Source: a virus
IMG/VR virus record: IMGVR_UViG_3300026255_000014
Span: 1-37,708 of that record
DNA length: 37,708 nt
Strand: one strand, 5' to 3'
In this document: in pieces, positions 1-37,638 of the stretch
Numbering within the stretch: the first letter of the stretch is position 1
Layout: each line of letters starts with the position of its first letter
The notes under the pieces: generated by a model
Seen by the model: the letters and a program-made list of their open reading frames with translations, nothing else
Database searches by the model: none
Told to the model about the DNA's origin: nothing
Translations under genes and position numbers: made by a program

Positions 1-312
1 CCGTTTTGTGGGAGGACACCGAATCCAGACTGGACTGATGAGAGCTACATAGAGTGTACAAATCGTAAATGTTCTCTTTATGGTTATGGAATGAGTACAG
101 GCGACTGGAACACCCGCCCAATTGAGGATGACCTTCGCAAGCGCATTGCCGAGTTGGAGGCGCTTGTTAATGTGTCGGAAGGTCTTTACGAGCGTATCTA
201 TGAGCAAGCAGCCCGCATTGCCGAGCTGGAGGCGGAGATTGTCCAACTTACCGCTCACGATGCTACAGAGCGGCAAGATGATAAGTGGATACCGGAGGTG
301 CAGGATGTGTAA
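1..312 (+). CDS. Lar-like zinc-ribbon protein, 5' truncated by window edge; duplicate copy of 37306..37638
   Basis: ORF track 91..312 translation is identical to the C-terminal part of 37306..37638; the frame is open back to position 1. Confidence 0.5.
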   Translation, partial: PFCGRTPNPDWTDESYIECTNRKCSLYGYGMSTGDWNTRPIEDDLRKRIAELEALVNVSEGLYERIYEQAARIAELEAEIVQLTAHDATERQDDKWIPEVQDV

Positions 313-382
313 CTTTTTCAGTTTTGTAACAGACCCAGTGAATCACCCAGCGGAGTATTACTACTTCGACTGGGAATATCGC
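1..382. repeat. Terminal redundancy, left copy; identical to 37327..37708
   Basis: Direct comparison of the first and last 382 nt of the window shows identity; implies a unit genome of about 37,326 bp. Confidence 0.9.
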
Positions 383-1069
383 AAGGCGCACCTAAACGAC
401 GATGGAGTGGACAGCCATTCGCATATCTGTGCATACTACCTCCTCAACGAGGATAGATGTAACAAATATGAGTTCAATCCGCTGACTGGAAGATTTGATA
501 TTGACCAAATCAACTCGGAGCGTGATGATTCAAATGCTGCAGAAAAGTGGGCGAAACGGCAGGACTTCAAAGAGATTGTCGAGACACTTATTATCAAGCC
601 GATTGTCAAACCGTTTGAGTTGCCAAAGGTAGAACAAGTGACAGATGAACAAATTGGCTGGCTGAAGGAGTGGGCTTCGGTCAGGGATTTGGTCGGGGCT
701 TCGGTCTGGGCTTTGGTCGGGGATTCGGTCAGGGATTCGGTCTGGGCTTTGGTCGGGGTTTCGGTCAGGGATTTGGTCTTGGATTCGGTCAGGGATTTGG
801 TCGGGGCTTCGGTCTGGGCTTCGGTCAGGGCTTCGGTCAGGGATTTGGTCGGGGCTTCGGTCTGGGCTTCGGTCAGGGATTCGGTCTGGGCTTCGGTCTG
901 GGCATATATCAGCAGTTTTTTCGCCATCAACTACAAATACAACTTTTCGTCTGTAGCAAATCTTTGGAACGCAGGGCTTGTACCCTCATTTGACGGTGAG
1001 ACATGGCGGTTGCATAGCAGCGAGAATGCGGATGTGGTTTACGAGTGGACGCCGGAGGTGCAGGAATGA
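305..1069 (+). CDS. Hypothetical protein with internal tetrapeptide tandem-repeat array and C-terminal WTPEVQE tail
   Basis: Same frame as ORF 122..1069; likely start ATG 305 sits 5 nt after GGAGGTG and overlaps the upstream stop. Ends in the conserved junction CCGGAGGTGCAGGAATGA. Frame assignment through the repeat is ambiguous. Confidence 0.5.
   Translation: MCNFFSFVTDPVNHPAEYYYFDWEYRKAHLNDDGVDSHSHICAYYLLNEDRCNKYEFNPLTGRFDIDQINSERDDSNAAEKWAKRQDFKEIVETLIIKPIVKPFELPKVEQVTDEQIGWLKEWASVRDLVGASVWALVGDSVRDSVWALVGVSVRDLVLDSVRDLVGASVWASVRASVRDLVGASVWASVRDSVWASVWAYISSFFAINYKYNFSSVANLWNAGLVPSFDGETWRLHSSENADVVYEWTPEVQE
672..899. repeat. 19 tandem copies of a 12-bp unit GGGNTTYGGTCN
   Basis: Read directly from sequence. 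No stop codons in any forward frame, which is why ORFs 122..1069, 670..993 and antisense 436..930 all cross it. Confidence 0.9.
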
Positions 1070-1395
1070 ACACGCTTAAACCCTGCCCGTTTTGTGGGAG
1101 GACACCGAATCCAGACTGGACTGATGAGAGCTACATAGAGTGTACAAATCGTAAATGTTCTCTTTATGGTTATGGAATGAGTACAGGCGACTGGAACACC
1201 CGCCCAATTGAGGATGACCTTCGCAAGCGCATTGCCGAGTTGGAGGCGCTTGTTAATGTGTCGGAAGGTCTTTACGAGCGTATCTATGAGCAAGCAGCCC
1301 GCATTGCCGAGCTGGAGGCGGAGATTGTCCAACTTACCGCTGATAGCACAGACGAGCGGAAAGATGATAAATGGATACCGGAGGTGCAGGAATGA
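1066..1395 (+). CDS. Lar-family-like zinc-ribbon protein (putative restriction alleviation), paralog B
   Basis: N-terminus MNTLKPCPFCG...C..RKC is a CxxC/CxxC zinc ribbon resembling Lar family proteins, followed by a coiled coil. Near-identical to 37306..37638 except the last ~12 codons. ATG 1066 overlaps the upstream stop (ATGA). Confidence 0.6.
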   Translation: MNTLKPCPFCGRTPNPDWTDESYIECTNRKCSLYGYGMSTGDWNTRPIEDDLRKRIAELEALVNVSEGLYERIYEQAARIAELEAEIVQLTADSTDERKDDKWIPEVQE

Positions 1396-2014: not shown

Positions 2015-2271
2015 GCGAACAAAAACATCCGGATGATATGACGCGTGAGGAGTTGATAACCCTCGTGTTTGCAATGAGCTGGGCGGCGTTGGATTTAGCA
2101 CAACACTTGGATTTTACAACAAAAATGCTGAAAGAAGAATATCGAAAAGAAGCTTACAAAAAAGCGACACGAATGGCATATGAACTTGTTTTTCTTTGGG
2201 AAGTAGAACCAGATGAGAATAAAAATTCGGGGATACTTATTTTTGGTGAAAATGGATTGGAGCACGGGTGA
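2011..2271 (+). CDS. Hypothetical protein
   Basis: ORF track; ATGA overlap with upstream gene. Confidence 0.5.
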   Translation: MSEQKHPDDMTREELITLVFAMSWAALDLAQHLDFTTKMLKEEYRKEAYKKATRMAYELVFLWEVEPDENKNSGILIFGENGLEHG

Positions 2272-2585
2272 GCAAGTCAGCGCTTGAAGCAGAGTTAGCC
2301 TTGCAGATCAAGGCGTTGGGCTTGCCAGAGCCGATTCGCGAATACCAGGCAATCAAGGGGCGCAAGTTCCGCTTTGACTTCGCTTGGCTTGAGCACAGGT
2401 TGCTGGTGGAAGTGAACGGCGGCACTTACACGAAGGGTGCTCACTCTACAGGTCGGGGCATTGCGCGAGACTACGAGAAGGCGAACCTGGCTACGCTTGA
2501 CGGCTGGCGCGTGCTGATGTTTGACGGCAAGGCGGTGAAGTCGGGTGTAGCGGTTGAAGTGATTAGACAGGCGTTGGAGGCGTGA
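2268..2585 (+). CDS. Putative PD-(D/E)xK-type endonuclease (DUF559/Vsr-like motif pattern)
   Basis: GTG start overlapping the upstream stop; pattern FRFDFAW...LLVEVNGG...H...RD...L...GW.VLMF recalled from DUF559-like nuclease domains. Confidence 0.45.
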   Translation: MSKSALEAELALQIKALGLPEPIREYQAIKGRKFRFDFAWLEHRLLVEVNGGTYTKGAHSTGRGIARDYEKANLATLDGWRVLMFDGKAVKSGVAVEVIRQALEA

Positions 2586-4236: not shown

Positions 4237-4584
4237 ATGGCTTATGCGCCAGCAAGACAATGTGTTGTGCCAGGATGTCCGAATCTTGTGACAGAGCCTG
4301 GTGTTAGCCGTTGTCCAGAACATCAAAAACAATACAAAAAAGAGTTGACAAGACCGCGTGATGTCAAATACACGAGTCAACGATGGCGCAAGACCTCGAA
4401 GGTGTTTTTGAGTCGCAATCCAATTTGTGAACGTTGTGGTGAGCCGAGTGAGATCGCACACCACATTATTCGTAAGCGTGATGACGGGGCAGACGACTTC
4501 GACAATCTGGAAGCACTTTGCCGAAAGTGTCATGAAGCCGAACATCATGCAAGCGGTGAAAGGTGGGGTAGGCGTGCGAGGTAG
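4237..4584 (+). CDS. HNH homing-type endonuclease
   Basis: CxxC...CxxC plus HH..RKRDDG...N...LC..CH arrangement typical of the HNH fold; canonical position just upstream of the terminase small subunit. Confidence 0.8.
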   Translation: MAYAPARQCVVPGCPNLVTEPGVSRCPEHQKQYKKELTRPRDVKYTSQRWRKTSKVFLSRNPICERCGEPSEIAHHIIRKRDDGADDFDNLEALCRKCHEAEHHASGERWGRRAR

Positions 4585-5071
4585 AACGCCATTGCCAGAT
4601 GCTTTGAAAGAAGCACAGGGAACGCTGAAGAAGAGCCGAGTAAATGACTCTCAGGCTCGTTTTGACGTACCTAAAGACTCACCGAAACCGCCGACAACGC
4701 TCAATCTCTATGGCAAGCGGTTGTGGAAAGAAATGCTGCCAAAGTTGGTTGAAACAGGTCTTTATACCGAAGGTGATCACCAGGCGTTTGAATTGCTTTG
4801 CATGGCTTATGGTGATCTGATTCAGGCACGCAAAGACCTTAAAGAGTCGGGTACGATTGTTATCACAGACAAGGGCACGGTTTATCAGCACCCTAACGTT
4901 GGGATCGCAAACCAGGCTTGGAATCGGGTGAAACTGATGTTGGGGCAGTTTGGGCTGACACCAGCAGAGCGGACACGAGTAAAAGCACGCTCACCCGAAG
5001 AGAAAAGGGGCAGTTTGGCAGAATCGTTGTTTGCTGCTGCACGTGAAAAGGTTGAGGGTGAGACTGAGTGA
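4574..5071 (+). CDS. terS: Terminase small subunit (P27-family-like)
   Basis: Motif GQFGLTPAERTRVKA and N-terminal RGRTPLP resemble P27-family TerS. Start uncertain: GTG 4574 follows an AGGTGGGG SD; ATG 4547 and 4532 are in-frame alternatives. Confidence 0.7.
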   Translation: MRGRTPLPDALKEAQGTLKKSRVNDSQARFDVPKDSPKPPTTLNLYGKRLWKEMLPKLVETGLYTEGDHQAFELLCMAYGDLIQARKDLKESGTIVITDKGTVYQHPNVGIANQAWNRVKLMLGQFGLTPAERTRVKARSPEEKRGSLAESLFAAAREKVEGETE

Positions 5072-6375
5072 GTGCAAATCTGTATTTAGGTGACTGTCTG
5101 GAAGTCTTATCAACGCTTGAAGCGGATAGCATTGACACCTGCATCACTGACCCGCCTTACGAGTTAGGTTTCATGGGTAAGAAGTGGGATTCAAGCGGCA
5201 TTGCGTTCCAGCCTGAAACTTGGCAAGCCGTATTCAGGGTGCTGAAACCAGGTGCAATTCTGCTTGCCTTCGGCGGCACTCGCACCTATCACCGCATTGC
5301 TTGCGCTATTGAGGACGCTGGCTTTGAAATCCGTGACACTATCGCTTGGGTATACGGGAGCGGATTCCCTAAAAGTTACGACATAAGTAAGGGAATTGAC
5401 AAACAAGCTGGAGCTGAAAGGGAAATAGTAGGCTACAAGGAAACATCAACTTATCCAGATAGCGATGGTGTTGCTCATTACAAAAACAGGCAACAAAGCA
5501 ATGGTTCTCAAGTCAATACAGGAGGTATGCCAGAAATCACCGCGCCCTCCACCCCCGAAGCGCAACTCTGGGATGGCTGGGGCACGGCGTTGAAGCCTGC
5601 CTTTGAGCCGATAGTTGTTGCGATGAAGCCGATTGACGGCACGTTTGTCAACAACGCGCTCACTTGGGGCGTGGCTGGCTTGTGGATTGACGGGGGTAGG
5701 GTGGGGACGTCAAAAAACGTTCCTGCATCACCAAGCGATAAAGGCACTCTGCAATGTAAAGGTTTGGGCGGTGGATGGGATAGAAGCGGAATGAATCCGA
5801 ACATTGGTCGCTTCCCTGCCAACTTGATTCACGACGGCTCGGATGAGGTGGTGAGTGGGTTTCCGAATACTACGAGCGGCAAGGTTGCGGCTGGAACTAT
5901 GCGAGGCTTGAAAAGCAATCACAATGTGGCATACGCAGACATCGCCGCCGGAACTGAATTGACTGGCTACGGCGACTCTGGCTCAGCCGCGCGCTTTTTC
6001 TACTGTGCGAAAGCCAGCCGAAGCGAGCGCAACGCTGGGCTGGAGGGGATGGAAGAAAAGGTCGGCGGTGGAATGAAGGGCACGGAAGACCAAACGCTTT
6101 TGACTGGCTCTGGAAACATCCGCAACAATAAAATGCAAAACCACCATCCCACCGTCAAGCCAATCGAACTGATGCGCTACCTTGTTCGGCTTACCAAAAC
6201 GCCAACAGGCGGGGTGGTACTTGACCCGTTCATGGGGTCTGGCACGACTGGCATTGCTTGCGTGTTGGAAGGACGCGAGTTTATCGGAATTGAGCGGGAA
6301 GCGGAGTATGTCGAGATTGCAGAAAAGCGGATTGCGCATTACAGGTTGCCGATATTGGAAGAAGTGATCGAGTGA
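5068..6375 (+). CDS. DNA methyltransferase (N6-adenine/N4-cytosine, beta-class order)
   Basis: N-terminal DPPY (ITDPPYELGF) and C-terminal AdoMet motif LDPFMGSGTTGIA. Confidence 0.85.
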   Translation: MSANLYLGDCLEVLSTLEADSIDTCITDPPYELGFMGKKWDSSGIAFQPETWQAVFRVLKPGAILLAFGGTRTYHRIACAIEDAGFEIRDTIAWVYGSGFPKSYDISKGIDKQAGAEREIVGYKETSTYPDSDGVAHYKNRQQSNGSQVNTGGMPEITAPSTPEAQLWDGWGTALKPAFEPIVVAMKPIDGTFVNNALTWGVAGLWIDGGRVGTSKNVPASPSDKGTLQCKGLGGGWDRSGMNPNIGRFPANLIHDGSDEVVSGFPNTTSGKVAAGTMRGLKSNHNVAYADIAAGTELTGYGDSGSAARFFYCAKASRSERNAGLEGMEEKVGGGMKGTEDQTLLTGSGNIRNNKMQNHHPTVKPIELMRYLVRLTKTPTGGVVLDPFMGSGTTGIACVLEGREFIGIEREAEYVEIAEKRIAHYRLPILEEVIE

Positions 6376-8966
6376 AAAAGTACGATCCCTGGAATTGCGA
6401 CCTTGATAAGTACGAATTTGACCCTGTGGCTGGGCAGGTTGCAGTCGACTTTATTGAAAATTATATTACCCATGTCAAAGGGGAGTTAGGCGGCAAGCCT
6501 TTTTTGCTTTTGGAGTGGGAAAAGGATTTTGTAAGAAACCTTTTCGGTTGGAAAGAAAAGGAAACAGGTTATCGGCGTTACCGTGAGGCGTTTGTATTTG
6601 TGGCACGGAAAAATGGCAAAGCATTAGAAGTCAATACTCCGATTCTGACTACTACAGGTTGGAAGAAACACGGCGATTTAGTCCCTGGAGACTTTGTTTT
6701 TTCTCCTGATGGCGTACCCGCAAAGGTTATCTATTCTACTCCTCATTATGAGGGGAATTGTTATTTTGTGGATTTCTCAGGCGATGAAGCAATTATCGCT
6801 CACGAAAATCACGAATGGAAAACTAACCGCACCTGGTATACAGGAAAGCCCAAATGGATAGAAGGTGAAAAGCCTTTGGTTACCACTAAGCGGATTGCGG
6901 AAACTCTACGATGTGGGAAACGCCAAGACCTTGTGCATTCTGTGGATGTTGCGAAACCGATACAGTTTGAGCCAAAAGAATACACAATACCCCCGTATGT
7001 TTTAGGCGTTTGGCTTGGCGATGGCGACTCTGACAGTTGCAGGATCACGATTGCAGAACCTGAAATTGTCCAGAAGCTATCTGATTATGGTTATCCAGCC
7101 GAATATAGATCAAGATACCGACACCTTGTTGGACGGGGGAAGTTTCAAAAGCAACTGCGTGAAAAGGGCTTACTGGGCAATAAGCATATACCACAAGAAT
7201 ACTTGCTTGGTTCAGTTGAGCAAAGGATCGACCTCTTGCGCGGATTGATGGACACAGACGGTTATGTGTCTTCGGCTGGACAATGCGGAATTGCATTAAC
7301 CGACGGTAATTTGTTTCGCCAAGTTGTCGAATTAATTACAGGCTTGGGATTAAAGCCTCGCGTAATGATTGATCGTGCTCAGTTAAATGGGGTTGACTGC
7401 GGAGTTAGATATAGAGTCCACTTCTATGCCTATCAAGACACGCCAATAGCATATATTGAGCGAAAAGCCAAACGGCAAAAAGAAACTCCAAAAACAAGGC
7501 GGCGCAGCCAGACTCGGATGATTTCAAATGTTACGCCCGCAGGTAAGCAAACAGTCAACTGCATCACAGTCGAAGGCGGGATGTATCTCGCAGGAAAGCA
7601 ACTTATCCCAACTCACAACTCACCTCTTGGGGCTGCCATCGCGCTTTATCTGTTGATTGTAGACAATGAGCCTGGTGCAGAGTTGATCTCTGTAGCAGCA
7701 GACCGAGACCAGGCACGGGCGATTTTTGACACGGCTCGTTTTATGGTAAAGCAAAACGCCGCCCTGGACGAATTGGTTAGTGCATATCGAAATGCGATTG
7801 TCGCTAAGCAAGGGGCTTCAGTTTACAAAGTTGTTTCATCGGATGCTGGCACTAAGCATGGTGGAAACTTACATGCTGCGCTTTTTGACGAGTTGCACGC
7901 TCAGAAGAACCGAGACCTTTACGATGTTGTGCAAACCAGTTTTGGCGCGCGCCGTCAACCACTGCTGATTTCTTTTAGTACGGCAGGGTTTGATCGTGAG
8001 TCGATCTGCTATGAAGTTTACTCAATGGCAAAGCAGATTTCTGAGGGCATAATCCAGCGAGATTGGTTTTACCCCGTAATATACGAGGCATCGCCAGAAG
8101 ACGATTGGACAAGCGAAGATACGTGGAAGAAAGCCAATCCGAGTTTGGGACACTCGATCAAGATTGATTACCTGCAGAAGAATTATGAAAAGGCTCTATC
8201 AAGCCCGCAGTTCCAAAACACTTTCAAGCGTTTGTATCTCAATATGTGGACATCGGCAGAAACACGCTGGCTTGATATGCAAAACTGGGACAAATGCGGT
8301 GAGCAACCGATTGACATGGGACTGCTTGAAGGGGCTGAATGTTACGGCGGTCTTGACCTTGCGACAGTTTCTGACATTGCTGCTTTTGTACTGGATTTCC
8401 CGAATGAAAGCGGTGAAGAGGAATTGCACACCTGGCTTCCGACCTTGTTCTGTCCAGAGTCAAAGTTGACCGACCCAGGTTTCATTGACCGCGACATTTA
8501 CAGGGCTTGGGCTGACCAGGGCTATTTGATTGCAACGCCTGGAAACGTGATTGACTACGAGTACATCATTGCTGAAATTGAGCGATTAGGTGAACTTTAC
8601 AACATTAAAGAGATCGCATTTGACCGTTGGGGTGCTGCACAGATTTCACAAACGCTTACCAATATGGGCTTTACTTTGGTTGGTTTTGGTCAAGGGTACG
8701 TGAGCATGTCACCACCCACAAAAGAAGTTGAGCGGTTGATATTACAAGGCAGGGTGAGACATGGAAACCACCCTGTAATGCGTTGGATGGCGGATAACGT
8801 TATGGTTACGACTGACCCTGCAGGGAATATCAAGCCAGACAAGAAGAAAAGCAGGCAGAAGATTGACGGCGTGGTTGCGGCAATCATGGCAACCGATAGG
8901 GCAATTAGAAATTCTGTAGGTCGCAAGGACTCTGTTTACGAAAAAAGAGGGTTGGTTGTTCTATGA
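6372..8966 (+). CDS. terL: Terminase large subunit, interrupted by an in-frame intein
   Basis: 864 aa; removing residues 84..416 yields the P-loop ARKNGKS and a Walker B-like LLIVDNE with a C-terminal nuclease-like domain. GTG start overlaps the upstream stop. Confidence 0.9.
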   Translation: MKKYDPWNCDLDKYEFDPVAGQVAVDFIENYITHVKGELGGKPFLLLEWEKDFVRNLFGWKEKETGYRRYREAFVFVARKNGKALEVNTPILTTTGWKKHGDLVPGDFVFSPDGVPAKVIYSTPHYEGNCYFVDFSGDEAIIAHENHEWKTNRTWYTGKPKWIEGEKPLVTTKRIAETLRCGKRQDLVHSVDVAKPIQFEPKEYTIPPYVLGVWLGDGDSDSCRITIAEPEIVQKLSDYGYPAEYRSRYRHLVGRGKFQKQLREKGLLGNKHIPQEYLLGSVEQRIDLLRGLMDTDGYVSSAGQCGIALTDGNLFRQVVELITGLGLKPRVMIDRAQLNGVDCGVRYRVHFYAYQDTPIAYIERKAKRQKETPKTRRRSQTRMISNVTPAGKQTVNCITVEGGMYLAGKQLIPTHNSPLGAAIALYLLIVDNEPGAELISVAADRDQARAIFDTARFMVKQNAALDELVSAYRNAIVAKQGASVYKVVSSDAGTKHGGNLHAALFDELHAQKNRDLYDVVQTSFGARRQPLLISFSTAGFDRESICYEVYSMAKQISEGIIQRDWFYPVIYEASPEDDWTSEDTWKKANPSLGHSIKIDYLQKNYEKALSSPQFQNTFKRLYLNMWTSAETRWLDMQNWDKCGEQPIDMGLLEGAECYGGLDLATVSDIAAFVLDFPNESGEEELHTWLPTLFCPESKLTDPGFIDRDIYRAWADQGYLIATPGNVIDYEYIIAEIERLGELYNIKEIAFDRWGAAQISQTLTNMGFTLVGFGQGYVSMSPPTKEVERLILQGRVRHGNHPVMRWMADNVMVTTDPAGNIKPDKKKSRQKIDGVVAAIMATDRAIRNSVGRKDSVYEKRGLVVL
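6621..7619 (+). mobile_element. Intein (333 aa) with LAGLIDADG homing endonuclease domain inside the TerL Walker A motif
   Basis: Begins ALEVNTPILT, contains LGVWLGDGDS and LLRGLMDTDGYV, ends ...LIPTHN followed by Ser; splicing restores ARKNGK|SPLG. Confidence 0.8.
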
Positions 8967-9172
8967 GTTTATTTGGATGGTTTGCAGAATTGAGACCAGT
9001 TATTGTCAACACAAAGTTTGGCAAGGATTTCAGGGGCGTTGTTTGGAAGAAAACAAACGACTGCATCGTTCTGAAAAACGCAGAGTGGTTGTCGCCTGAT
9101 GGGGCGAAAAAACTGGATGGTGAAACAATCATCTTCATCAAAGAAATCGAATTTATACAGGCGGTCTCATGA
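8963..9172 (+). CDS. Hypothetical protein
   Basis: ORF track; ATGA overlaps with both TerL and portal. Confidence 0.5.
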   Translation: MSLFGWFAELRPVIVNTKFGKDFRGVVWKKTNDCIVLKNAEWLSPDGAKKLDGETIIFIKEIEFIQAVS

Positions 9173-15129: not shown

Positions 15130-15606
15130 ATGGCAATCAAGCGTTCAAAACTATTGCATTTTATGAACACTACGCCGTCAAGCACGGCAACTTACTACTT
15201 GATGAACACTGGTATCACCAGCCTTAGTATCAACAAGAATCCAACTTACCTGGAAGAAGGGTACATCGCTGACGATGTTGGCAGCAAACAGTTGGAAAGT
15301 CTTGCGCCTGAGTTCACATTTGAGATCAACGTGGACTCGGCTGACGAAGTTTCAAAGTTCTTGACTGGTTTGGAATGGAACGACAAAACCCTGACCGATG
15401 TTGAGACAGACATTGTTTCTGTGCAGTATTGGAAAACCCCAACTGGAACTGCCTATCCTGCAAAAAAGTATAAGGTTTCTGTTTCTGTTGAAACAATCGG
15501 TGACGAAGCGTTGAAGACGCTAAAACATTCCGTTACCTGTGGCGTTATGGGCGATGCGGTCTTTGGGACATTCAACACCTCTTCCAAAGCCTTTAGTGCG
15601 ACCTAA
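15130..15606 (+). CDS. Major tail protein, paralog 1
   Basis: Position upstream of chaperones and tape measure; homologous to the adjacent gene. Confidence 0.6.
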   Translation: MAIKRSKLLHFMNTTPSSTATYYLMNTGITSLSINKNPTYLEEGYIADDVGSKQLESLAPEFTFEINVDSADEVSKFLTGLEWNDKTLTDVETDIVSVQYWKTPTGTAYPAKKYKVSVSVETIGDEALKTLKHSVTCGVMGDAVFGTFNTSSKAFSAT

Positions 15607-15623: not shown

Positions 15624-16133
15624 ATGGCGATCAAAAGATCAAAATTACAACATTTTATGAATACCACGCCAGACGAGACAACTCCATCTGGCGGTGAAAC
15701 ATGGTCGTTGATGAACACTGGCATTACCAGCCTGAGCATCAACAAAAACCCAACCTATCTTGAGGAAGGGTACATTGCCGACGATGTTGGCAGTAAACAG
15801 CTTGAGAGCCTTGCGCCTGAGTTCACTTTTGAGATCAATGTAGATGAGGACGACCCTGTGTCTATTTATCTGACTGACTTAGAGTGGGAAGATGCAACTT
15901 TGGAAGACGTTGAAACCAGCATCGTGTCTGTGCAGTTGTGGCAGACTCCCTCTGGCACTGCTCCAAACTTATTGTACCCTGCGAAGAAATACAACGTGTC
16001 AATCTCGGTTGAAACCATTGGCGATGAAGCGTTGAAAACGCTAAAGCATTCGGTGACCGCTGGTGTGATGGGCGATGCGGTCTTTGGGACTTTCAATCCG
16101 AACACAAAAGCCTTTGTAGAAGACGAGGATTAG
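15624..16133 (+). CDS. Major tail protein, paralog 2
   Basis: Protein is alignable along its length with 15130..15606 (identical N-terminus MAIKRSKL.HFMNTTP and long shared blocks). Confidence 0.6.
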   Translation: MAIKRSKLQHFMNTTPDETTPSGGETWSLMNTGITSLSINKNPTYLEEGYIADDVGSKQLESLAPEFTFEINVDEDDPVSIYLTDLEWEDATLEDVETSIVSVQLWQTPSGTAPNLLYPAKKYNVSISVETIGDEALKTLKHSVTAGVMGDAVFGTFNPNTKAFVEDED

Positions 16134-28426: not shown

Positions 28427-28698
28427 CATTACAAAATCCATTGAAAGACCCTTCCGCAGTGCTGGATTATGTGTTCGACTGGACGGAATGGCTGGCAACC
28501 GGCGAAACAATCACCGACCATACTATCACAGCCGACACGGGTATCACCGTTGACAGTTCGACTGAATCAGACGGCAAAGTTACCGTCTGGCTCTCAGGCG
28601 GTACGGCTGGTATCAATTACAAAGTGGCGTGCCTGATTACAACGTCCGCAGGGCGAACCGACGAGCGCACAATCTGGATCAAGGTGGTCGAAAGGTGA
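28417..28698 (+). CDS. Small conserved-looking phage protein (possible fiber-associated)
   Basis: Pattern DYVFDWTEWL...VTVWLSGGTAG.NYKV recalled as a recurrent phage family; function unknown. Confidence 0.35.
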   Translation: MSLTLQNPLKDPSAVLDYVFDWTEWLATGETITDHTITADTGITVDSSTESDGKVTVWLSGGTAGINYKVACLITTSAGRTDERTIWIKVVER

Positions 28699-30185
28699 GC
28701 AATTTGTTTCCAGACATAACGGGCGTGCTATATGAAGAAGAACAGTCAAAATTACATGAGATAGCCAAAACAACTACGCATCCAATTGTCAACATTGGCG
28801 TATATCAAGGATTGTCTACCGCACAACTTGCAAGTGGCACAAAGCAGAGCGTGTACGCCATTGACATTTGGGATGAGCGACCAGCAGGGTATGTCCCAAG
28901 TAAAAGGGACTTGATGAGGGGATACCACCTGAAGAAAACTCAGGACGTTTTCCTTGAAAACATGGAAAAGCACGGCTTGACAAACGTTATCCCGATAAAG
29001 GGTAACAGCAAGGTGGTTGGCAAAACCTGGGACACCCCGATAGGCGTGTTGTTTATCGACGGTGATCACCATTACAAATCCGCGCTTTCGGATTACAGCT
29101 TGTTTGCAAAACACATTGTAGTCGGCGGATGGTTAGCAATTCACGATTATCACATAAAAGACGTTAGAAGGGTGATAGACGAGATCATCATTCCTTCGGG
29201 ACTGTGGACGGACATTGAACTGACAGAGACCTTATGGGTTTGCAAGAGAAAGTCGTGCACGACAGCAGACGCAAAACCGCCTATGACATACTGGATACGC
29301 CATCATCAGCACAAAGGGAAGCCAATTGAAGACGCTTTAATTAGTCAAGGATGGCAGTGTAGTGACGCGCCAGATATTGCCTTGTTCGACACCGCGAGGA
29401 ACAAACCTATAGAACGCAGGTTTAGAAGAGGGGGCGCAACGCTTGTAGTCTATCCGCATACGGCAATTGCTGGCTGGTGGTACGACGGGATATTAGAACC
29501 GCCTAACGGCTTTAGTGCAATACTGGCTATCGGGGAAGGACAGAAGGAAGTCCAGAATATCATCACGCCGAACATCAGGGTTGAAACAATTGGTTGGAGT
29601 TATTGTCCAATCTTGCCATTTCAAAAGCCAAAGGCGATCAAGCAAATACTGTTTGCCCCCATCCATCCAAGCCTCAATGGCAAGTTGAGATCAGAGGCAA
29701 AAGACGTGAACGTCAGGGTGTATAAGCGTTTGCTGGAAATGAAAGGCGTGCAGATAAACCTTCGTGTTATTGGCGATCTTGAAAAGAATGGATTATGGCA
29801 CTCGCCAGATGTTACAACCACAGAAGCCCAACCAGACGGAAGTTATGCAGAAATTGATTCTGCAGATTTGGTGATAGGCGAGGGCATGTTTCTATCGCTT
29901 GCAGTAGCCAGAGGGAAGCCAGCTATCGGAATGAATCAGCGCGTAACACAGAAAGTAAACTGGAGTGGGCGCGTTCCAAAACGGTGGAACGAATATAACC
30001 ACTTACAAGCATATCCGATTGACTTTGATGACGCTGATCTGCCGGAGTTGATTGACAAGGCGGTAGACGAATCACAGGTAAGCAACTGGAAGAAACGCTT
30101 TATCGGTGAGCAGTTGCAACCTGAGCATTTATCAAACGTGCTAAAGGACATCAGGAATGAGCATGCCAAACAGAGAGAACAATAA
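28695..30185 (+). CDS. Fusion protein: class I SAM-dependent methyltransferase-like N-terminus, glycosyltransferase-like C-terminal domain
   Basis: NIGVYQGLST...FIDGDHHY...GGWLAIHDY resembles Methyltransf_24-type O-methyltransferases; C-terminal ADLVIGEGMFLSLAVARGKPAIG resembles GT-B C-terminal domains. GTG start overlaps upstream stop. Confidence 0.5.
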   Translation: MSNLFPDITGVLYEEEQSKLHEIAKTTTHPIVNIGVYQGLSTAQLASGTKQSVYAIDIWDERPAGYVPSKRDLMRGYHLKKTQDVFLENMEKHGLTNVIPIKGNSKVVGKTWDTPIGVLFIDGDHHYKSALSDYSLFAKHIVVGGWLAIHDYHIKDVRRVIDEIIIPSGLWTDIELTETLWVCKRKSCTTADAKPPMTYWIRHHQHKGKPIEDALISQGWQCSDAPDIALFDTARNKPIERRFRRGGATLVVYPHTAIAGWWYDGILEPPNGFSAILAIGEGQKEVQNIITPNIRVETIGWSYCPILPFQKPKAIKQILFAPIHPSLNGKLRSEAKDVNVRVYKRLLEMKGVQINLRVIGDLEKNGLWHSPDVTTTEAQPDGSYAEIDSADLVIGEGMFLSLAVARGKPAIGMNQRVTQKVNWSGRVPKRWNEYNHLQAYPIDFDDADLPELIDKAVDESQVSNWKKRFIGEQLQPEHLSNVLKDIRNEHAKQREQ

Positions 30186-30188
30186 ATT

Positions 30189-31493
30189 ATGAGCGAAACC
30201 GCTTTGATCGACAATATCTCAAGAGAGATATTTGAAGGTAATGGAAACGCACAAGAGAAACTACGTAGAATATATGGTAAAGAACTAAACTATACCAACG
30301 CCAAAAAATACTTGGCTGGGATAAAACTGCACCTGAACACGGTCAAGGGCTTAGACAAAAACCAACAAACTTTTGGTACATCGAAAGAGATCAGTTTCAA
30401 TGCTGACAAAAGTCAAACCGTAAAACAAGACGTTTACCTGACACCGGACGAGGCAGCCGATCCTTCAAAGATAATGCGGAGGATGGGCTTTGATCCTTTG
30501 TTATGGGAAGTTATAACCTGCAACGTGATCAGCGGATCGTGGGATGTTACGATCAAGAACGAAGCCTATGAGGGCGTGAAATACACGAACCAAAAATACT
30601 CGATAAAGTTGACCGTGAAACCGTTGGGGGGCAACCTGACGTTTCCACAAGTGCTGAGTGCTTTCAAGGAACTGCAACCTGCCAAAGTTATCGAGTACGA
30701 CTACGAACCGATTGTAACAGGAAAAGGGCTTTTGTTTGAACTGCCAATTATGGATTTCCACTTAGGCAAACTCGCCTGGTCTGGCGAAACAGGCGATGAT
30801 GATTATGATCTGAAAGCCGCTGCAAAGTTGTGGAAGAAAACTGTAGACGATCTGATAGACAAGGCTTGCAGCTTTGGCGAGATTGAGAAAATATTGTTTC
30901 CAGTTGGGCAAGACTATTTTCATTTTGACACGCCAACGGTTACTACAACCGCTGGAACTCAACTCGATTCTGACACACGTTGGCAGAAGATGTTTAGCAA
31001 AGGCGTGGAGTTGTTGGTTTGGGCGGTAGAGCAATTGAGAAAGATTGCGCCAGTTGAAGTATTGTGGATTCCAGGCAACCACGATCAGATGTTATCTTAT
31101 GCGGCAACTGTGGGCTTGGCTCAACGGTATGCAGAAACTAAAAGCGTAAAGGTGGACTTGAGCGCAACCCCCAGGAAGTATCGCTTGTTTGGAAATAGCC
31201 TTATCGGATATTCTCACGGCGAAAAAGAAGGCAAGCGGCTGGAGGGGCTTATGCAGATTGAAGCACCTGAACTTTGGGGTGATTCTATCTTCAGGGAATT
31301 TCATATGGGGCATTTGCACACTGAATCAACCGTCACAAAAAACGGTATCGTGTTTCGCAGGATCAGTGCGATCACCGCACCCAATGCCTGGCACGTGGAA
31401 AATGGTTTCATTGGCAGTGTACGACAGGCGCAAGCGTTTATGTGGGATAAGGAACGCGGCTTGCAAGCTATCTTGAATAGTAATGTGAGGTAA
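30189..31493 (+). CDS. Calcineurin-like metallophosphoesterase-like protein
   Basis: Ordered motifs DFHLG, GQDYFHFD, GNHD, YSHGE, GHLH resemble the metallophosphatase signature. Confidence 0.5.
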   Translation: MSETALIDNISREIFEGNGNAQEKLRRIYGKELNYTNAKKYLAGIKLHLNTVKGLDKNQQTFGTSKEISFNADKSQTVKQDVYLTPDEAADPSKIMRRMGFDPLLWEVITCNVISGSWDVTIKNEAYEGVKYTNQKYSIKLTVKPLGGNLTFPQVLSAFKELQPAKVIEYDYEPIVTGKGLLFELPIMDFHLGKLAWSGETGDDDYDLKAAAKLWKKTVDDLIDKACSFGEIEKILFPVGQDYFHFDTPTVTTTAGTQLDSDTRWQKMFSKGVELLVWAVEQLRKIAPVEVLWIPGNHDQMLSYAATVGLAQRYAETKSVKVDLSATPRKYRLFGNSLIGYSHGEKEGKRLEGLMQIEAPELWGDSIFREFHMGHLHTESTVTKNGIVFRRISAITAPNAWHVENGFIGSVRQAQAFMWDKERGLQAILNSNVR

Positions 31494-31855: not shown

Positions 31856-32029
31856 ACGCCTTCTTCTGCCATTGCCTTATCAAGCAGGTTGCGTAGAGTA
31901 CGGCTGATCCCCTGTGGCTGTGACGTAAAAAAAGGGGGTAAAAACAGGGGTTATTATAATATCGCATAATTACACCTTATTATAATACAACGCTTATTTT
32001 AGGGGTATTTTATCGCTTGCAATGGCCAC

Positions 32030-32101
32030 GGGTTCAGGGTTCAGGGTTCAGGGGTTCACGATCTCAGGGTTCAGGGTTCAGCGTCCAGGGGTAGGGGGGG
32101 G
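32030..32101. repeat. Tandem GGGTTCA heptamer array ending in a G8 run
   Basis: GGGTTCA x3, GGGGTTC, gap, GGGTTCA x2, degenerate copies, then GGGGTAGGGGGGGG. Confidence 0.85.
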
Positions 32102-32214
32102 CGAAATCTCTACCGCGCAAGCCCCCCGAGCGCGCGCGTAATCTTAGGCACGCGAGGGCAAATATCCGACAGGGGGTTAATCTTACCAATTATTCAAGAA
32201 ATCCCGAAAAACAC

Positions 32215-32242
32215 TTGACTTTTGCTTTAATTTGTGTATAAT
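32215..32242 (+). promoter_or_regulatory. Sigma-70-type promoter, near consensus (probable early promoter)
   Basis: TTGACT (32215..32220), 16-nt spacer, TATAAT (32237..32242); RBS TAAGGAGC and ATG at 32284 downstream. Confidence 0.65.
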
Positions 32243-32283
32243 TCAGGTGTAGTAAAGTAATTCACACAAAGATAAGGAGCAAA

Positions 32284-32475
32284 ATGTTTGACACGCAAGA
32301 AATCTATTTATCCCGATTAGAACCACAAGAAGAAGAAATTGTCACTTGCCCACATTGCGAAAGTTATCTCGTTGAGCATCAGGACAATTTCACCTACGTC
32401 TGCCTGGATTGTCTGCAAGAGTTCAGCATCCACCCGATGGCAGATGACGACTCAATACCGTTTCGAAAGGAGTAA
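32284..32475 (+). CDS. Small zinc-ribbon protein (first early gene)
   Basis: CPHC...CLDC motifs; strong promoter and RBS upstream. Confidence 0.6.
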   Translation: MFDTQEIYLSRLEPQEEEIVTCPHCESYLVEHQDNFTYVCLDCLQEFSIHPMADDDSIPFRKE

Positions 32476-32477
32476 CG

Positions 32478-32594
32478 ATGTTAGACCAACTTTTTGATTT
32501 CATAGTAGGATTCGGAATTATCTGCATACCGATGATGATCGGCGCAGTTGTGGCCGGCATCATCGAGACAAGACGTGAGCGGAGGGGAAGATGA
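32478..32594 (+). CDS. Small hydrophobic peptide (38 aa)
   Basis: Hand-translated MLDQLFDFIVGFGIICIPMMIGAVVAGIIETRRERRGR; AAGGAG 7 nt upstream; below the ORF-track size cut-off. Confidence 0.4.
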   Translation: MLDQLFDFIVGFGIICIPMMIGAVVAGIIETRRERRGR

Positions 32595-32683
32595 CCGCAC
32601 TCGGAATTGACATGAGCAGCCGTGATGCAGGTGGGGGTACTCGCCAGCGCAATCTATGAGAAGTGGCAGGAAAGAAGGGCTAA

Positions 32684-33031
32684 ATGAAGGAAATATCGGC
32701 CTATAAATGCGGTTACTGCAAAAGAATATACCAGTTCCAGCGCAACGCTCAGAAGCATGAGGCAGTATGCCATTATAACCCGTCTATGCGCTCATGCTTT
32801 ACTTGTGGGCTGTTTGTTCGTGAAGCAGACATCTCAGACTATGATGGCGAGTTTGTTCCATCTGCCCGATGCGAAAAAGGGTTTGATATAGATGAACCAT
32901 TTGACCACATAAGGCTTGCGCAAGTCGGTTGCAAGTTTTGGGAGCCAAGAGAAAACCACCCAGGCGAGTATGTGAAGTTTAGAACTGGCTTTGGTGGATA
33001 CAGAAAGCTTTATGAGGAGAGCAAGAAATGA
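32684..33031 (+). CDS. Cysteine-rich hypothetical protein
   Basis: ORF track; CGYC, C..C pairs. Confidence 0.5.
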   Translation: MKEISAYKCGYCKRIYQFQRNAQKHEAVCHYNPSMRSCFTCGLFVREADISDYDGEFVPSARCEKGFDIDEPFDHIRLAQVGCKFWEPRENHPGEYVKFRTGFGGYRKLYEESKK

Positions 33032-33300
33032 CCGTACTCGGAATCAACGTAACAGACAGAGATCCAGACTTATTTTATTGGCCAAAGCCTAACTGGCACG
33101 GCAAACCTGCAGAGTTGTTGAGAGTTGAAAGCAAGATTGAAGATCTGTGGGAGTGTTACGGAAAAAAGTGTGACATTATCCCGTTGCCGAATATCGAACT
33201 TGACGAGCTATTAGACGAAATTGATCACCTGGAAAAAATCAAAACAAGATTATGGAACGAATGGCAACACTTAGAAACAGAAAAGGAGCTAACACAATGA
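33028..33300 (+). CDS. Hypothetical protein
   Basis: ORF track; ATGA overlaps at both ends. Confidence 0.5.
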   Translation: MTVLGINVTDRDPDLFYWPKPNWHGKPAELLRVESKIEDLWECYGKKCDIIPLPNIELDELLDEIDHLEKIKTRLWNEWQHLETEKELTQ

Positions 33301-34017: not shown

Positions 34018-34980
34018 ATGAATAATGAACTAATAACGCTTGATGAGAGAAGCCGTTTATACCAGCTTGAAGAAACTATCAGGCAAGGGCTGAATACCTT
34101 CGTGGATGTTGGGAACGCCCTGCTTGAGATACGGGACAAACGGCTTTACAGGCAAGAGCACAGCACGTTCGAAGAATACTGCAATAAGCAGTGGAACTTT
34201 ACAAAACAGCGTGTCTACCAACTTATGGATTCTGCCTCTGTAATCGACACTCTAAAAAAGTCAACCGTGGTTGACTTTTTACCAACCTCTGAACGCCAAG
34301 CCCGCCCGCTTGCGTCACTTGAGCCAGAAGAACAGGTTGAAGCATGGAAGCGCGTTATTACATCAACGCCGGAGGGCAATGTTACAGCCAAGATTGTTTT
34401 GAAGGCTGTAAAGGAAGTTGAGCGCGAGAAGCGCATTGAGCGAAGGCAAGAGCGCATAGAAAGTACTCCTGTAATTCCAAACGGGAAATACAACGTCATT
34501 TATGCTGACCCTCCCTGGCAATACGCATTTGGGTTTGATATTCATGGGGCAGCCGATAGACACTACTCCACTATGTCAATTGATGAACTTTGTGAATTGC
34601 CGATAAGAGACTTGACCGAAGACAACGCAGTCTTATTTATGTGGACGACATCACCAAAGTTATTTGATTCTTATGCTGTAATAAAGGCATGGGGATTTGA
34701 GTATAAAACTTCCTTCGTCTGGGACAAAGTGAAACATGTCATGGGGCACTATAACAGTGTCAGGCATGAGTTCCTTCTACTTTGCACAAAGGGAAGTTTT
34801 CCAAAACAGTCTAATACTTTACACGACAGCGTTATTGAAATCGAGCGATCGGACGAACACAGCGAAAAACCTGAATATTTTCGGCAACTAATTGAGACGA
34901 TGTATCCGCTATCGAAAAAAATAGAGTTATTCGCACGTAAAACTGTCGATGGCTGGGATGGCTGGGGGAATGAAATATGA
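34018..34980 (+). CDS. MT-A70-family N6-adenine DNA methyltransferase with N-terminal putative DNA-binding domain
   Basis: VIYADPPWQY, FMWTT, KAWGF, VWDK, EHSEKP, ELFARK...GWDGWGNE are MT-A70 signatures. Confidence 0.85.
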   Translation: MNNELITLDERSRLYQLEETIRQGLNTFVDVGNALLEIRDKRLYRQEHSTFEEYCNKQWNFTKQRVYQLMDSASVIDTLKKSTVVDFLPTSERQARPLASLEPEEQVEAWKRVITSTPEGNVTAKIVLKAVKEVEREKRIERRQERIESTPVIPNGKYNVIYADPPWQYAFGFDIHGAADRHYSTMSIDELCELPIRDLTEDNAVLFMWTTSPKLFDSYAVIKAWGFEYKTSFVWDKVKHVMGHYNSVRHEFLLLCTKGSFPKQSNTLHDSVIEIERSDEHSEKPEYFRQLIETMYPLSKKIELFARKTVDGWDGWGNEI

Positions 34981-35456: not shown

Positions 35457-35458
35457 AA

Positions 35459-37124: not shown

Positions 37125-37309
37125 GCGACATTAAAGAGTATCAGTCAGATTCAATAGTTTGCGATTTGTGTAATGGAAAAGGAAATATATTGATGACCTT
37201 CCATGATTGGATTTTAGATGAAACGCGCACGGAAGTGAGTACCTGTATCCGTTGTAAAGGCAAGGGCTTCTTGCATGATGGCAAACAGCCGCCGGAGGTG
37301 CAGGAATGA
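37121..37309 (+). CDS. Small zinc-ribbon protein
   Basis: CDLCNGKG...CIRCKGKG; ends in the PEVQE junction. Confidence 0.55.
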   Translation: MSDIKEYQSDSIVCDLCNGKGNILMTFHDWILDETRTEVSTCIRCKGKGFLHDGKQPPEVQE

Positions 37310-37638
37310 ACACGCTTAAACCCTGTCCGTTTTGTGGGAGGACACCGAATCCAGACTGGACTGATGAGAGCTACATAGAGTGTACAAATCGTAAATGTTC
37401 TCTTTATGGTTATGGAATGAGTACAGGCGACTGGAACACCCGCCCAATTGAGGATGACCTTCGCAAGCGCATTGCCGAGTTGGAGGCGCTTGTTAATGTG
37501 TCGGAAGGTCTTTACGAGCGTATCTATGAGCAAGCAGCCCGCATTGCCGAGCTGGAGGCGGAGATTGTCCAACTTACCGCTCACGATGCTACAGAGCGGC
37601 AAGATGATAAGTGGATACCGGAGGTGCAGGATGTGTAA
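37306..37638 (+). CDS. Lar-family-like zinc-ribbon protein (putative restriction alleviation), paralog A
   Basis: Same N-terminal zinc ribbon and coiled coil as 1066..1395; complete copy of the gene truncated at 1..312. Confidence 0.6.
   Translation: MNTLKPCPFCGRTPNPDWTDESYIECTNRKCSLYGYGMSTGDWNTRPIEDDLRKRIAELEALVNVSEGLYERIYEQAARIAELEAEIVQLTAHDATERQDDKWIPEVQDV

What the first reader, a model, noticed from the sequence alone, without database searches (positions are those of the whole stretch)
5068..6375. Two unrelated DNA methyltransferases plus Lar-like genes: heavy anti-restriction investment
A DPPY/FxGxG methylase sits between terS and terL, an unusual insertion point in the packaging module, and an MT-A70 family methylase is in the early region (34018..34980). 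Together with two Lar-like paralogs this suggests protective methylation combined with restriction alleviation.
Basis: partly seen in the sequence, partly recalled or inferred. Interest (0 to 1): 0.5.

Follow-up and report, generated by a model that had tools for sequence, protein, structure and literature searches.

The report
Swappable DNA methylase cassette between terminase genes
A phage genome carries a real DNA methyltransferase gene wedged exactly between its two DNA-packaging genes, plus a second methylase elsewhere, but this is an ordinary, frequently gained and lost anti-restriction accessory gene rather than a new kind of system.

Summary
ORF 5068-6375 is a 435-aa class-beta amino-methyltransferase (PF01555, E 3e-35; DPPY before FMGSG). 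It lies between TerS (4532-5071) and TerL (6372-8966), joined to both by GTGA stop/start overlaps. ORF 34018-34980 is an MT-A70 methylase (E 3e-25, DPPW).

The two Lar-like paralogs exist (37306-37638, 1066-1395), but each scores below Pfam's Lar threshold. "Unrelated" overstates the case, because both methylases are class beta.

New here: the methylase is an ORF-precise cassette that is present or absent among sibling phages whose flanks are 92-97% identical. Two divergent alleles (58% identity) occupy the same site. Close homologs sit at other sites: upstream of the HNH gene, at the end of the late operon, and between portal and MuF-like genes. At least 16 of 78 viral-contig relatives lie within three genes of a TerL, portal or MuF-like gene. 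Burkholderia phages DC1 and BcepIL02 are a published precedent.

The genome also avoids short palindromes strongly: GGCC 12 versus about 112 expected, GGNCC 1 versus about 95.

Best reading: a late-expressed orphan methylase that protects progeny DNA from restriction. Target motifs and activity were not tested. It is a new member of a known kind, of low to moderate interest.

The parts
4237..4584 (+). HNH endonuclease of the HK97-type packaging module
   Evidence: PF01844 E 2.4e-12; phrog_144 E 6e-27.
4532..5071 (+). Small terminase subunit (Terminase_4 / P27 family). Its TGA stop overlaps the GTG start of the methylase.
   Evidence: PF05119 E 4.2e-23; phrog_83 E 1.3e-37. The 179-aa gene call comes from independent contig L229.
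5068..6375 (+). Orphan class-beta DNA amino-methyltransferase (DPPY ... FMGSG), 435 aa. This is the polymorphic cassette.
   Evidence: PF01555 at 122.7 bits; phrog_67 E 3e-75. The nearest solved structure is CcrM 6pbd, E 1.2e-24. More than 8000 homologs. Present or absent among sibling phages.
5068..5071 (+). GTGA stop/start overlap between terS and the methylase, within the hexamer GAGTGA
   Evidence: Sequence read; junction alignment A1; junction strings.
6372..6375 (+). GTGA stop/start overlap between the methylase and terL. The same GAGTGA hexamer is a 6-bp direct repeat bracketing the cassette.
   Evidence: Sequence read; junction alignment A2; junction strings.
6372..8966 (+). Large terminase subunit, 864 aa. 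It is interrupted by a 333-aa LAGLIDADG intein (6621-7619) in the P-loop.
   Evidence: PF03354 and PF20441, plus Hom_end. The intein-free 531-aa homolog in L017 fixes the intein boundaries.
34018..34980 (+). MT-A70 family DNA methyltransferase (ADPPW) in the early/replication region. It has an unassigned 150-aa N-terminal domain.
   Evidence: PF05063 E 2.7e-25; phrog_359 E 8e-59. PDB hits are MT-a70 family proteins and METTL3. About 40% identity to phage methylases over aa 150-320 only.
37306..37638 (+). Lar-like zinc-ribbon plus coiled-coil protein, copy 1 (110 aa). Window bases 1-312 are the same gene because of the circular overlap.
   Evidence: PF14354 at 21.5 bits, below the 28.6 cutoff. 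Homologs at 40-52% identity carry PF14354. Terminal repeat shown.
1066..1395 (+). Lar-like protein, copy 2 (109 aa). It is identical to copy 1 over residues 1-91.
   Evidence: Both copies are present on independent contigs L229 and L230.
28629..30185 (+). Third SAM-methyltransferase-domain protein (Methyltransf_24 at the N-terminus, 518 aa). It has no (D/N/S)PP(Y/F/W) motif and is probably not a DNA amino-methyltransferase.
   Evidence: PF13578 E 2.2e-16; phrog_2675, labelled 'DNA methyltransferase', E 5e-20; sequence; a single PDB hit, 6g7d.

Best explanation
The gene at 5068-6375 is an accessory, moron-like orphan DNA methyltransferase of the class-beta CcrM/PF01555 type. From its DPPY motif it most likely makes N6-methyladenine.

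It sits as an ORF-precise cassette at the terS|terL junction of an HK97-like packaging operon (HNH, TerS, TerL, portal). GTGA stop/start overlaps join it to both neighbours, and no promoter- or terminator-like site lies at either junction. It is therefore inferred to be transcribed and translated together with the terminase, late in infection. At that stage it would methylate replicated phage DNA just before encapsidation, so that progeny genomes enter the next host already protected from the cognate restriction enzymes.

The early-region MT-A70 enzyme is a second, independent methylase, presumably with another specificity.

The cassette is dispensable for packaging. It is exchanged, lost or relocated frequently among related phages. 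Recombination in the conserved flanks could move it, and deletion between the 4-6 bp GAGTGA/GTGA repeats that bracket it could remove it.

Shown: gene identity, intact motifs, junction anatomy, presence/absence polymorphism, alternative sites, and site avoidance. Inferred: late expression, the modified base, and the protective role.
For: **Identity.**
- PF01555 at 122.7 bits with the full profile covered.
- DPPY at aa 28-31 and FMGSG at aa 388-392.
- Both halves align to CcrM.
- DPPY and the FxGxG block are invariant across 39 homologs.

**Junction anatomy.**
- GTGA overlaps occur at both ends.
- Promoter- and terminator-like sites are not above chance, and none lies at a junction.

**Accessory status.**
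- In L095 and L097 (93-95% DNA identity to the window in the flanks), and in L088, L090 and L091, the terS stop directly overlaps the terL start.
- The window, L086 and L216 carry allele 1. L017, L089 and L101 carry allele 2, which is 58% identical.
- L101 and L090 differ by the cassette but are 92-97% identical in the flanks.

**Other sites for close homologs.**
- Upstream of the HNH gene in sibling phage L087.
- Before the Zn-ribbon gene at the end of the late operon in L233 and L234.
- Between portal and MuF or minor-capsid genes in L002, L009-L011, L013, L015, L016 and L235.
- Directly upstream of unrelated TerL families in L030, L049 and L072.

**Restriction pressure.** The eight most depleted tetramers are all palindromes. 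GGCC is 12 against 111.5 +/- 9.8 expected, and GGNCC is 1 against 94.7 +/- 8.8. The methylase gene itself obeys the same avoidance.

**Literature.**
- The same family in actinophages is sporadic, horizontally transferred and interpreted as anti-restriction (PMC9957025).
- There is a terS/terL precedent in phages DC1 and BcepIL02 (PMC10269572).
- Phage-borne class-beta methylases are thought to be switched on only in the lytic phase (PMC5778455).
Against: - No methylation data exist, so the target motif and even the modified base are unknown.
- Motif counts in cassette-positive and cassette-negative relatives showed no motif that is relaxed when the methylase is present.
- The host is unknown, because MAG bins that carry fragments disagree: Anaerolineaceae for L216 and Pseudomonadota for L217. 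No cognate restriction system can therefore be named.
- Late co-expression is inferred from gene overlaps only.
- The roughly 240-aa region that CcrM lacks (aa 102-342) could not be modelled (pLDDT below 50), so its role as a recognition domain is assumed.
Confidence: 0.65

Rival explanations
1. Packaging or regulatory methylase. The enzyme marks the cos/pac region or late promoters and so controls terminase cleavage or timing. Phage P1 is the model: its own Dam-type methylase must methylate pac before cleavage (my knowledge of P1).
For: The gene lies inside the terminase operon and is translationally coupled to TerS and TerL. The family recurs next to TerL and portal genes in unrelated phages.
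Against: Sibling phages with 93-97% identical TerS and TerL lack the gene entirely, so packaging does not depend on it. The same family also sits in replication modules of cultured phages such as BUCT618, phiPsal1 and mycobacteriophage clusters E and F.
Confidence: 0.08
2. Packaging-coupled or virion-delivered anti-restriction. The methylase acts on DNA as it is threaded by terminase, or it is encapsidated and injected with the DNA. P1 DarB and MuF-linked polyvalent proteins are the models (my knowledge).
For: The gene recurs between portal and MuF or minor-capsid-protein-2 genes. In L003-L005 it lies five genes upstream of a 3303-aa protein with a ddrB-ParB domain.
Against: This phage has no MuF gene. 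The protein has no recognisable targeting or portal-binding domain. Many homologs are in early regions. There is no proteomic evidence.
Confidence: 0.07
3. Selfish or neutral passenger. The cassette spreads by recombination between related phages and gives the phage no benefit.
For: Distribution is patchy, the gene occupies at least four sites in related genomes, and there are two alleles at one site. The neighbouring TerL carries a homing-endonuclease intein that is itself polymorphic.
Against: The cassette contains no homing endonuclease or transposase. Sequence conservation is very strong: 60-78% identity across hundreds of metagenomic homologs, with invariant catalytic blocks. That argues for purifying selection on enzyme function.
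Confidence: 0.1
4. The modification half of a phage-borne restriction or exclusion system. The nuclease partner would lie elsewhere, for example the DUF559/Vsr-like ORF at 2268-2585. The system would degrade host or competitor DNA while the phage's own DNA stays protected.
For: DC1 and BcepIL02 carry a methylase together with a restriction endonuclease between terS and terL (PMC10269572). There is a weak DUF559 hit at 2268-2585 (E 0.002), and the same ORF matches phrog_503, E 1.5e-28, of unknown function.
Against: No nuclease gene is adjacent; the flanks are terS and terL. The DUF559 hit is below threshold and lies 2.5 kb away. Cassette polymorphism shows no linked partner within the fetched loci.
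Confidence: 0.05

Closest known systems
Actinophage orphan methylase family (Dorothy_75 / PopTart_63; Gosselin et al. 2023, PMC9957025)
   Same: Full-length homology: 44-46% identity over 96% of the protein to methylases of Mycobacterium phages, including ones I take from memory to belong to clusters E and F. It shows the same sporadic presence among close relatives, the same evidence of frequent gain, loss and transfer, and the same anti-restriction interpretation.
   Different: In the listed Mycobacterium phages the gene lies late in the record coordinates, which I read as the right-arm early region without inspecting the annotation. Here it is inside the terminase operon. The window protein (435 aa) carries none of the three insertion elements described there (intein, second LAGLIDADG endonuclease, ShiLan domain).
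Caulobacter CcrM (PDB 6pbd), class-beta N6-adenine methyltransferase
   Same: It is the best solved-structure match (E 1.2e-24). The DPPY-containing N-terminal segment and the FxGxG SAM-binding segment both align, in the same motif order IV then I.
   Different: About 240 residues (aa 102-342) separate the two aligned halves here, against about 50 in CcrM. CcrM's C-terminal non-specific DNA-binding domain is absent. The NCBIfam CcrM equivalog score is far below its cutoff (94 against 830), so this is not a CcrM ortholog and GANTC specificity cannot be assumed.
Burkholderia phages DC1 and BcepIL02 (Lessievirus): methylase in the variable region between terS and terL
   Same: [quoted passage not shown] It is absent from the close relative CSP3, so the region is variable among relatives (PMC10269572).
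   Different: There the interval holds about 15 genes, including a restriction endonuclease. Here it holds a single ORF fused to both neighbours by GTGA overlaps, with no nuclease.
M.EcoGII and other prophage-borne class-beta methylases
   Same: A phage-borne DPPY...FxGxG enzyme with a central recognition region. It is thought to be expressed only during lytic growth because constitutive expression harms the cell (PMC5778455).
   Different: Sequence relatedness to M.EcoGII was not tested here, and nothing indicates non-specific activity.
Rac prophage Lar (PF14354)
   Same: An N-terminal CPFC...C-x4-C zinc ribbon matches positions 2-34 of the 58-position Lar profile. Homologs at 40-52% identity carry PF14354.
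   Different: The score is below Pfam's cutoff. The window proteins are about twice as long and have a C-terminal coiled coil (RIAELEAEI) that Lar lacks. No functional evidence exists.

Membership tests
Class-beta DNA amino-methyltransferase (PF01555 N6_N4_Mtase) | Score above Pfam's gathering threshold with full profile coverage | tested here: met
   122.7 bits against 26.7. Profile positions 1-221 are matched over aa 22-420.
Class-beta DNA amino-methyltransferase (PF01555 N6_N4_Mtase) | Motif IV (D/N/S)PP(Y/F) lies N-terminal to motif I FxGxG (beta order) | tested here: met
   DPPY at aa 28-31 and FMGSG at aa 388-392. Both are invariant in 39 homologs.
Class-beta DNA amino-methyltransferase (PF01555 N6_N4_Mtase) | SAM-dependent methyl transfer to adenine N6 or cytosine N4 in a defined motif | not testable with these tools
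   This needs SMRT or nanopore sequencing, or an in vitro assay.
CcrM orthologs (NCBIfam NF050803) | Equivalog score above the curated cutoff | tested here: not met
   94 bits against a cutoff of 830. The protein is related in fold and class only.
Orphan (solitary) phage methyltransferase | No cognate restriction endonuclease gene adjacent | tested here: met
   The flanking genes are TerS and TerL. For the MT-A70 gene the flanks are ERF and an unassigned 159-aa ORF.
Actinophage Dorothy_75/PopTart_63 methylase family (PMC9957025) | Full-length sequence homology to the actinophage methylases described there | tested here: met
   44-46% identity over 96% of the query to Mycobacterium phage methylases such as DLane gp70 and PhatBacter gp102. 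The named type proteins themselves were not aligned, and the cluster E/F assignment of the listed phages is from my memory.
Actinophage Dorothy_75/PopTart_63 methylase family (PMC9957025) | Sporadic presence among closely related phages | tested here: met
   Cassette-positive and cassette-negative siblings have 92-97% identical flanks.
MT-A70 (PF05063) | Pfam gathering threshold and a DPPW catalytic motif | tested here: met
   89.7 bits against 23.9. ADPPW is read in the translation. PDB hits are MT-a70 family proteins and METTL3.
Lar restriction-alleviation family (PF14354) | Score above Pfam's gathering threshold | tested here: not met
   21.5 and 21.2 bits against 28.6, covering only profile positions 2-34 of 58. 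No PHROG match to a Lar family.
Lar restriction-alleviation family (PF14354) | Homology to bona fide family members through intermediate sequences | tested here: inconclusive
   About a third of the 120 best homologs (40-52% identity, near full coverage) carry a precomputed PF14354 hit. The closest ones do not.
Lar restriction-alleviation family (PF14354) | Alleviation of type I restriction in vivo | not testable with these tools
   This needs a plating assay on a restricting host.

The most novel reading that the evidence does not exclude
This methylase family recurs inside packaging and head modules of unrelated phages: at terS|terL, directly upstream of other TerL families, and between portal and MuF-like genes. 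The most novel reading is that it works in physical or temporal coupling with the packaging machine. It would either methylate DNA as terminase threads it, or be encapsidated and injected to act on incoming DNA. Under this reading the position is functional, not just a tolerated insertion site.
Probability: 0.07. Interest if true: 0.6.

Novelty: new member of a known kind. Interest (0 to 1): 0.25.

Why it matters
Phage orphan methylases are well known, so the gene itself adds little. The useful result is at population level. Natural sibling phages differ only by this single-ORF cassette, or by which of two alleles they carry, inside an essential and translationally coupled operon. They form a ready-made isogenic series for measuring what a phage methylase is worth against restriction, and for mapping which variable segments set specificity. 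The very strong GGCC and GGNCC avoidance also shows that this lineage combines passive site avoidance with active methylation.

Tried and rejected
- **Nucleotide search.** A megablast of 4400-9000 against cultured phages found nothing. The nearest cultured TerL is below 50% identical, in Clostridia-type phages.
- **Structure prediction.** An AlphaFold2 model of the methylase from 39 homologs was too poor to use: mean pLDDT 50.8, with residues 191-363 below 50. No fold search was run, and the central region stays uncharacterised.
- **Specificity from motif counts.** I compared palindrome counts in the shared TerL-portal region of cassette-positive and cassette-negative relatives. No motif tracked the cassette.
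- **Host inference.** The genome-collection scan gave conflicting MAG bins: Anaerolineaceae for L216 and Pseudomonadota for L217.
- **N-terminal domain of the MT-A70 protein.** Its first 150 aa gave no Pfam or PDB sequence match. My impression of a ParB-type HTH is unverified.
- **Literature.** The review by Murphy et al. (2013) on phage orphan methyltransferases is not held in the library. Several text searches for "between the terminase" returned mostly irrelevant papers.
- **Third methylase.** I considered counting 28629-30185 as a third DNA methylase on the strength of its PHROG label. I rejected that as unproven, because it has no amino-methyltransferase motif IV.
Full report
**1. What the window is**

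Bases 1-382 repeat 37327-37708 exactly. The contig is therefore a circularly closed phage genome of about 37.3 kb. Every plausible gene is on the + strand.

The gene order is:
- small nin-like genes, then an HNH endonuclease (4237-4584);
- TerS, the methylase, TerL, portal, protease and capsid;
- tail genes, a GH25/C39 endolysin and tail-fibre-like genes;
- a Methyltransf_24 protein, an exonuclease and a Zn-ribbon gene;
- a non-coding gap;
- ERF, the MT-A70 methylase, a DnaD-like protein and SSB.

Independent assemblies reproduce the same order, including across the window ends. They are a 46-kb ENA contig and an 18-kb IMG contig.

**2. Checking the observation**

ORF 5068-6375 encodes 435 aa. 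DPPY is at aa 28-31 and FMGSG at aa 388-392. It matches PF01555 at 122.7 bits against a cutoff of 26.7, and the whole profile is spread over aa 22-420. It also matches phrog_67, "DNA methyltransferase", at E 3e-75.

The nearest solved structure is CcrM (6pbd, E 1.2e-24). Both catalytic halves align, but about 240 residues lie between them here against about 50 in CcrM. The protein falls far below the CcrM equivalog cutoff.

The upstream gene is a Terminase_4 TerS. The downstream gene is a TerL with ATPase and nuclease domains.

ORF 34018-34980 is an MT-A70 protein (E 2.7e-25, ADPPW motif). Cultured-phage homologs share only its catalytic half, aa 150-320.

The two enzymes belong to distinct Pfam families. 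Both are class-beta amino-methyltransferases (PMC7544214), so "unrelated" is too strong.

The two Lar-like genes are 37306-37638 and 1066-1395. They are recent duplicates, identical for 91 residues. Each scores about 21 bits against PF14354, whose cutoff is 28.6, and only over the zinc ribbon. About a third of their 40-52%-identical homologs carry PF14354. A distant domain relationship is therefore plausible, but family membership and function are not established.

**3. What the methylase gene really is: a polymorphic cassette**

I spliced the intein out of TerL and fetched TerL relatives from viral contigs. I then mapped HNH, TerS, methylase, intein and portal on each locus.

Among phages with TerL at least 87% identical, both states occur.

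- The methylase sits between terS and terL in the window (also L093 and L007), in L086, and in L216, a MAG contig seen. These carry allele 1, 95-100% identical.
- It also sits there in L017, L089 and L101. These carry allele 2, about 58% identical.
- In L088, L090, L091, L095 and L097 the terS stop directly overlaps the terL start.
- L087 also has an empty junction, but it carries a 552-aa homolog about 1.7 kb upstream of the HNH gene.

Flanking DNA is 93-95% identical between the window and L095, and 92-97% identical between L101 and L090.

The junction alignments show an indel of exactly one ORF.
- Empty sites read ...gactgaGTGAa..., where the terS TGA overlaps the terL GTG.
- The window reads ...gactgaGTGAgtgcaa... 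at the left end and ...gatcgaGTGAaaaag... at the right end.
- The hexamer GAGTGA therefore brackets allele 1. The tetramer GTGA brackets allele 2.

Two routes would produce the observed states: recombination within the conserved flanks, or deletion between these microhomologies. That step is inference.

The two alleles differ mainly in five segments: aa 42-50, 120-155, 214-246, 267-300 and 329-356. The catalytic blocks are nearly identical.

**4. Is the position unusual?**

It departs from the textbook module order. It is not unusual for this family.

The family is very large: all 8000 scored candidates were significant. It spans many bacterial phyla.

Of 78 viral-contig relatives with a called gene, at least 16 have the methylase within three genes of a TerL, portal or MuF-like gene. 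Two of the 16 are the window phage itself.
- It lies directly upstream of TerL in three different TerL lineages.
- It lies between portal and MuF in several loci.
- In ten further loci a small HNH endonuclease follows as the next or second gene downstream.

Contigs from the protein collection add more cases:
- portal|MuF or portal|minor-capsid positions in L002 and L235;
- a position three genes upstream of a TerL in L003-L005;
- an end-of-late-operon position before a Zn-ribbon gene in L233 and L234. This is the slot that the Methyltransf_24 and exonuclease genes occupy in the window.

In cultured phages the gene lies in early or replication regions of BUCT618 and phiPsal1, and late in the record coordinates of the listed Mycobacterium phages.

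A published precedent exists. Burkholderia phages DC1 and BcepIL02 carry a COG0863 methylase, together with a restriction endonuclease, in the variable interval between terS and terL. Their relative CSP3 does not (PMC10269572).

Gosselin et al. described the actinophage branch of this family. They found it sporadically distributed and horizontally transferred, and they interpreted it as counter-restriction subject to an arms race with type IV enzymes (PMC9957025).

**5. How it most likely works**

*Shown.* The catalytic motifs are intact and strongly conserved. The gene is an orphan. GTGA overlaps sit on both sides, and no promoter- or terminator-like site above chance lies at the junctions. 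The gene is dispensable in natural siblings.

*Inferred.* The gene is co-expressed with terminase late in infection. It methylates replicated DNA before packaging, so progeny DNA is protected on the next infection. Late synthesis would also limit harm to the cell, as argued for M.EcoGII (PMC5778455). The DPPY motif suggests m6A, from general knowledge of motif IV.

The MT-A70 enzyme in the early region would add a second specificity.

The genome is clearly under restriction pressure. The eight most under-represented tetramers are all palindromes.

| Motif | Observed | Expected (dinucleotide shuffles) |
|---|---|---|
| GGCC | 12 | 111.5 +/- 9.8 |
| GGNCC | 1 | 94.7 +/- 8.8 |
| CTAG | 3 | 84 |
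| TTAA | 52 | 168 |
| AGCT | 63 | 145 |
| CCGG | 37 | 96 |

Seven hexamer palindromes are absent altogether. The avoidance of GGCC and GGNCC is shared by the sibling phages and by the methylase gene itself.

"Heavy anti-restriction investment" is therefore a fair summary. It is not the Lar-like genes.

**6. Rivals**

- *Packaging or regulatory role, as with P1 Dam and pac.* Cassette-negative siblings with near-identical terminases argue against it.
- *Packaging-coupled or virion-delivered action.* The portal/MuF associations and a nearby protein with a ddrB-ParB domain in L003-L005 suggest it. Nothing in this phage supports it directly.
- *Purely selfish passenger.* Strong conservation and the absence of any mobility gene in the cassette argue against it.
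- *Split restriction-modification or exclusion system.* No adjacent nuclease supports it. There is only a sub-threshold DUF559-like ORF 2.5 kb away.

**7. Verdict**

This is a new member of a known kind. Its one useful detail is natural near-isogenic variants at an ORF-precise site inside the terminase operon. Target motifs, expression timing, the host and Lar-like function remain untested.

Noticed in passing
window 6621-7619 (TerL aa 84-416): A 333-aa LAGLIDADG intein interrupts the TerL P-loop (KNGK|A...THN|S). It starts with Ala. It also has Trp in HENHEW, Cys in VNCITVEG and Thr in PTHN, which looks like the class-3 'WCT' pattern as I remember it. It is present or absent independently of the methylase. 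All four combinations occur among siblings: L095 and L097 have the intein but no methylase, and L086 and L017 have the methylase but no intein.
   Followed up: partly
window, whole genome; residual GGCC sites at 32024-36411: Short palindromes are avoided very strongly: GGCC 12 against about 112 expected, GGNCC 1 against about 95, CTAG 3 against 84, and seven 6-mer palindromes absent. Nine of the 12 remaining GGCC sites and the only GGNCC site lie in the early region 31.7-36.5 kb, which is 13% of the genome (binomial P about 1.5e-6). The cause is unexplained. The early module may have been acquired recently.
   Followed up: partly
window 28629-30185 and 30189-31493: A third SAM-methyltransferase-domain protein (PF13578 at the N-terminus; its PHROG label is 'DNA methyltransferase', but it has no DPPY-type motif). 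It is followed by a phrog_704 'DNA repair exonuclease'. In L008 a phrog_704 exonuclease, and in 18 other viral loci the related phrog_284 exonuclease, lies next to PF01555 methylases. In L233 and L234 a 72-74% homolog of the window's PF01555 methylase occupies this slot.
   Followed up: partly
window 1-382 = 37327-37708: An exact terminal overlap shows that the contig is a closed circle of about 37,326 bp. The ORF at 91-312 is the tail of the Lar-like gene 37306-37638.
   Followed up: yes
window 637-948 (inside ORF 305-1069): About 26 tandem copies of a 12-nt unit encode a degenerate four-residue repeat (SVRD / SVWA / LVGA). The 254-aa protein has no family match and sits between the two Lar-like paralogs.
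   Followed up: no
window 214-284, 1300-1370, 1799-1869, 36872-36912, 37540-37610; ORF ends at 1069, 1395, 37124, 37309, 37638: Several adjacent small ORFs share a KRIAELEAEI coiled-coil segment. Five ORFs end in ...PEVQE or ...PEVQDV just before the next start codon. The repeated DNA at gene boundaries could serve as recombination linkers for module shuffling.
   Followed up: no
L087 764-2422 (sibling phage, TerL 97% identical): The terS|terL site is empty, but a 552-aa methylase of the same family (52-65% identical) lies about 1.7 kb upstream of the HNH gene. Closely related phages therefore keep the family at different sites.
   Followed up: partly
window 15130-15606 and 15624-16133: Two adjacent paralogous genes of 158 and 169 aa have 73-77% DNA identity (repeat families D4 and D9). 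By position they are probably duplicated major-tail or tail-tube-like proteins.
   Followed up: no
window 2268-2585: A 105-aa ORF has a weak DUF559/Vsr-like endonuclease match (E 0.002, below threshold) and a strong match to phrog_503 of unknown function (E 1.5e-28). It is the only candidate nuclease partner for the methylases, and it is not adjacent to either.
   Followed up: no
family members P0006, P0028, P0071-P0079; L101 924-2546; Mycobacterium phages Murica and MISSy: Many homologs are 100-300 aa longer than the window protein, or align in two pieces. This fits the intein, endonuclease and ShiLan insertions reported for this family in PMC9957025.
   Followed up: no
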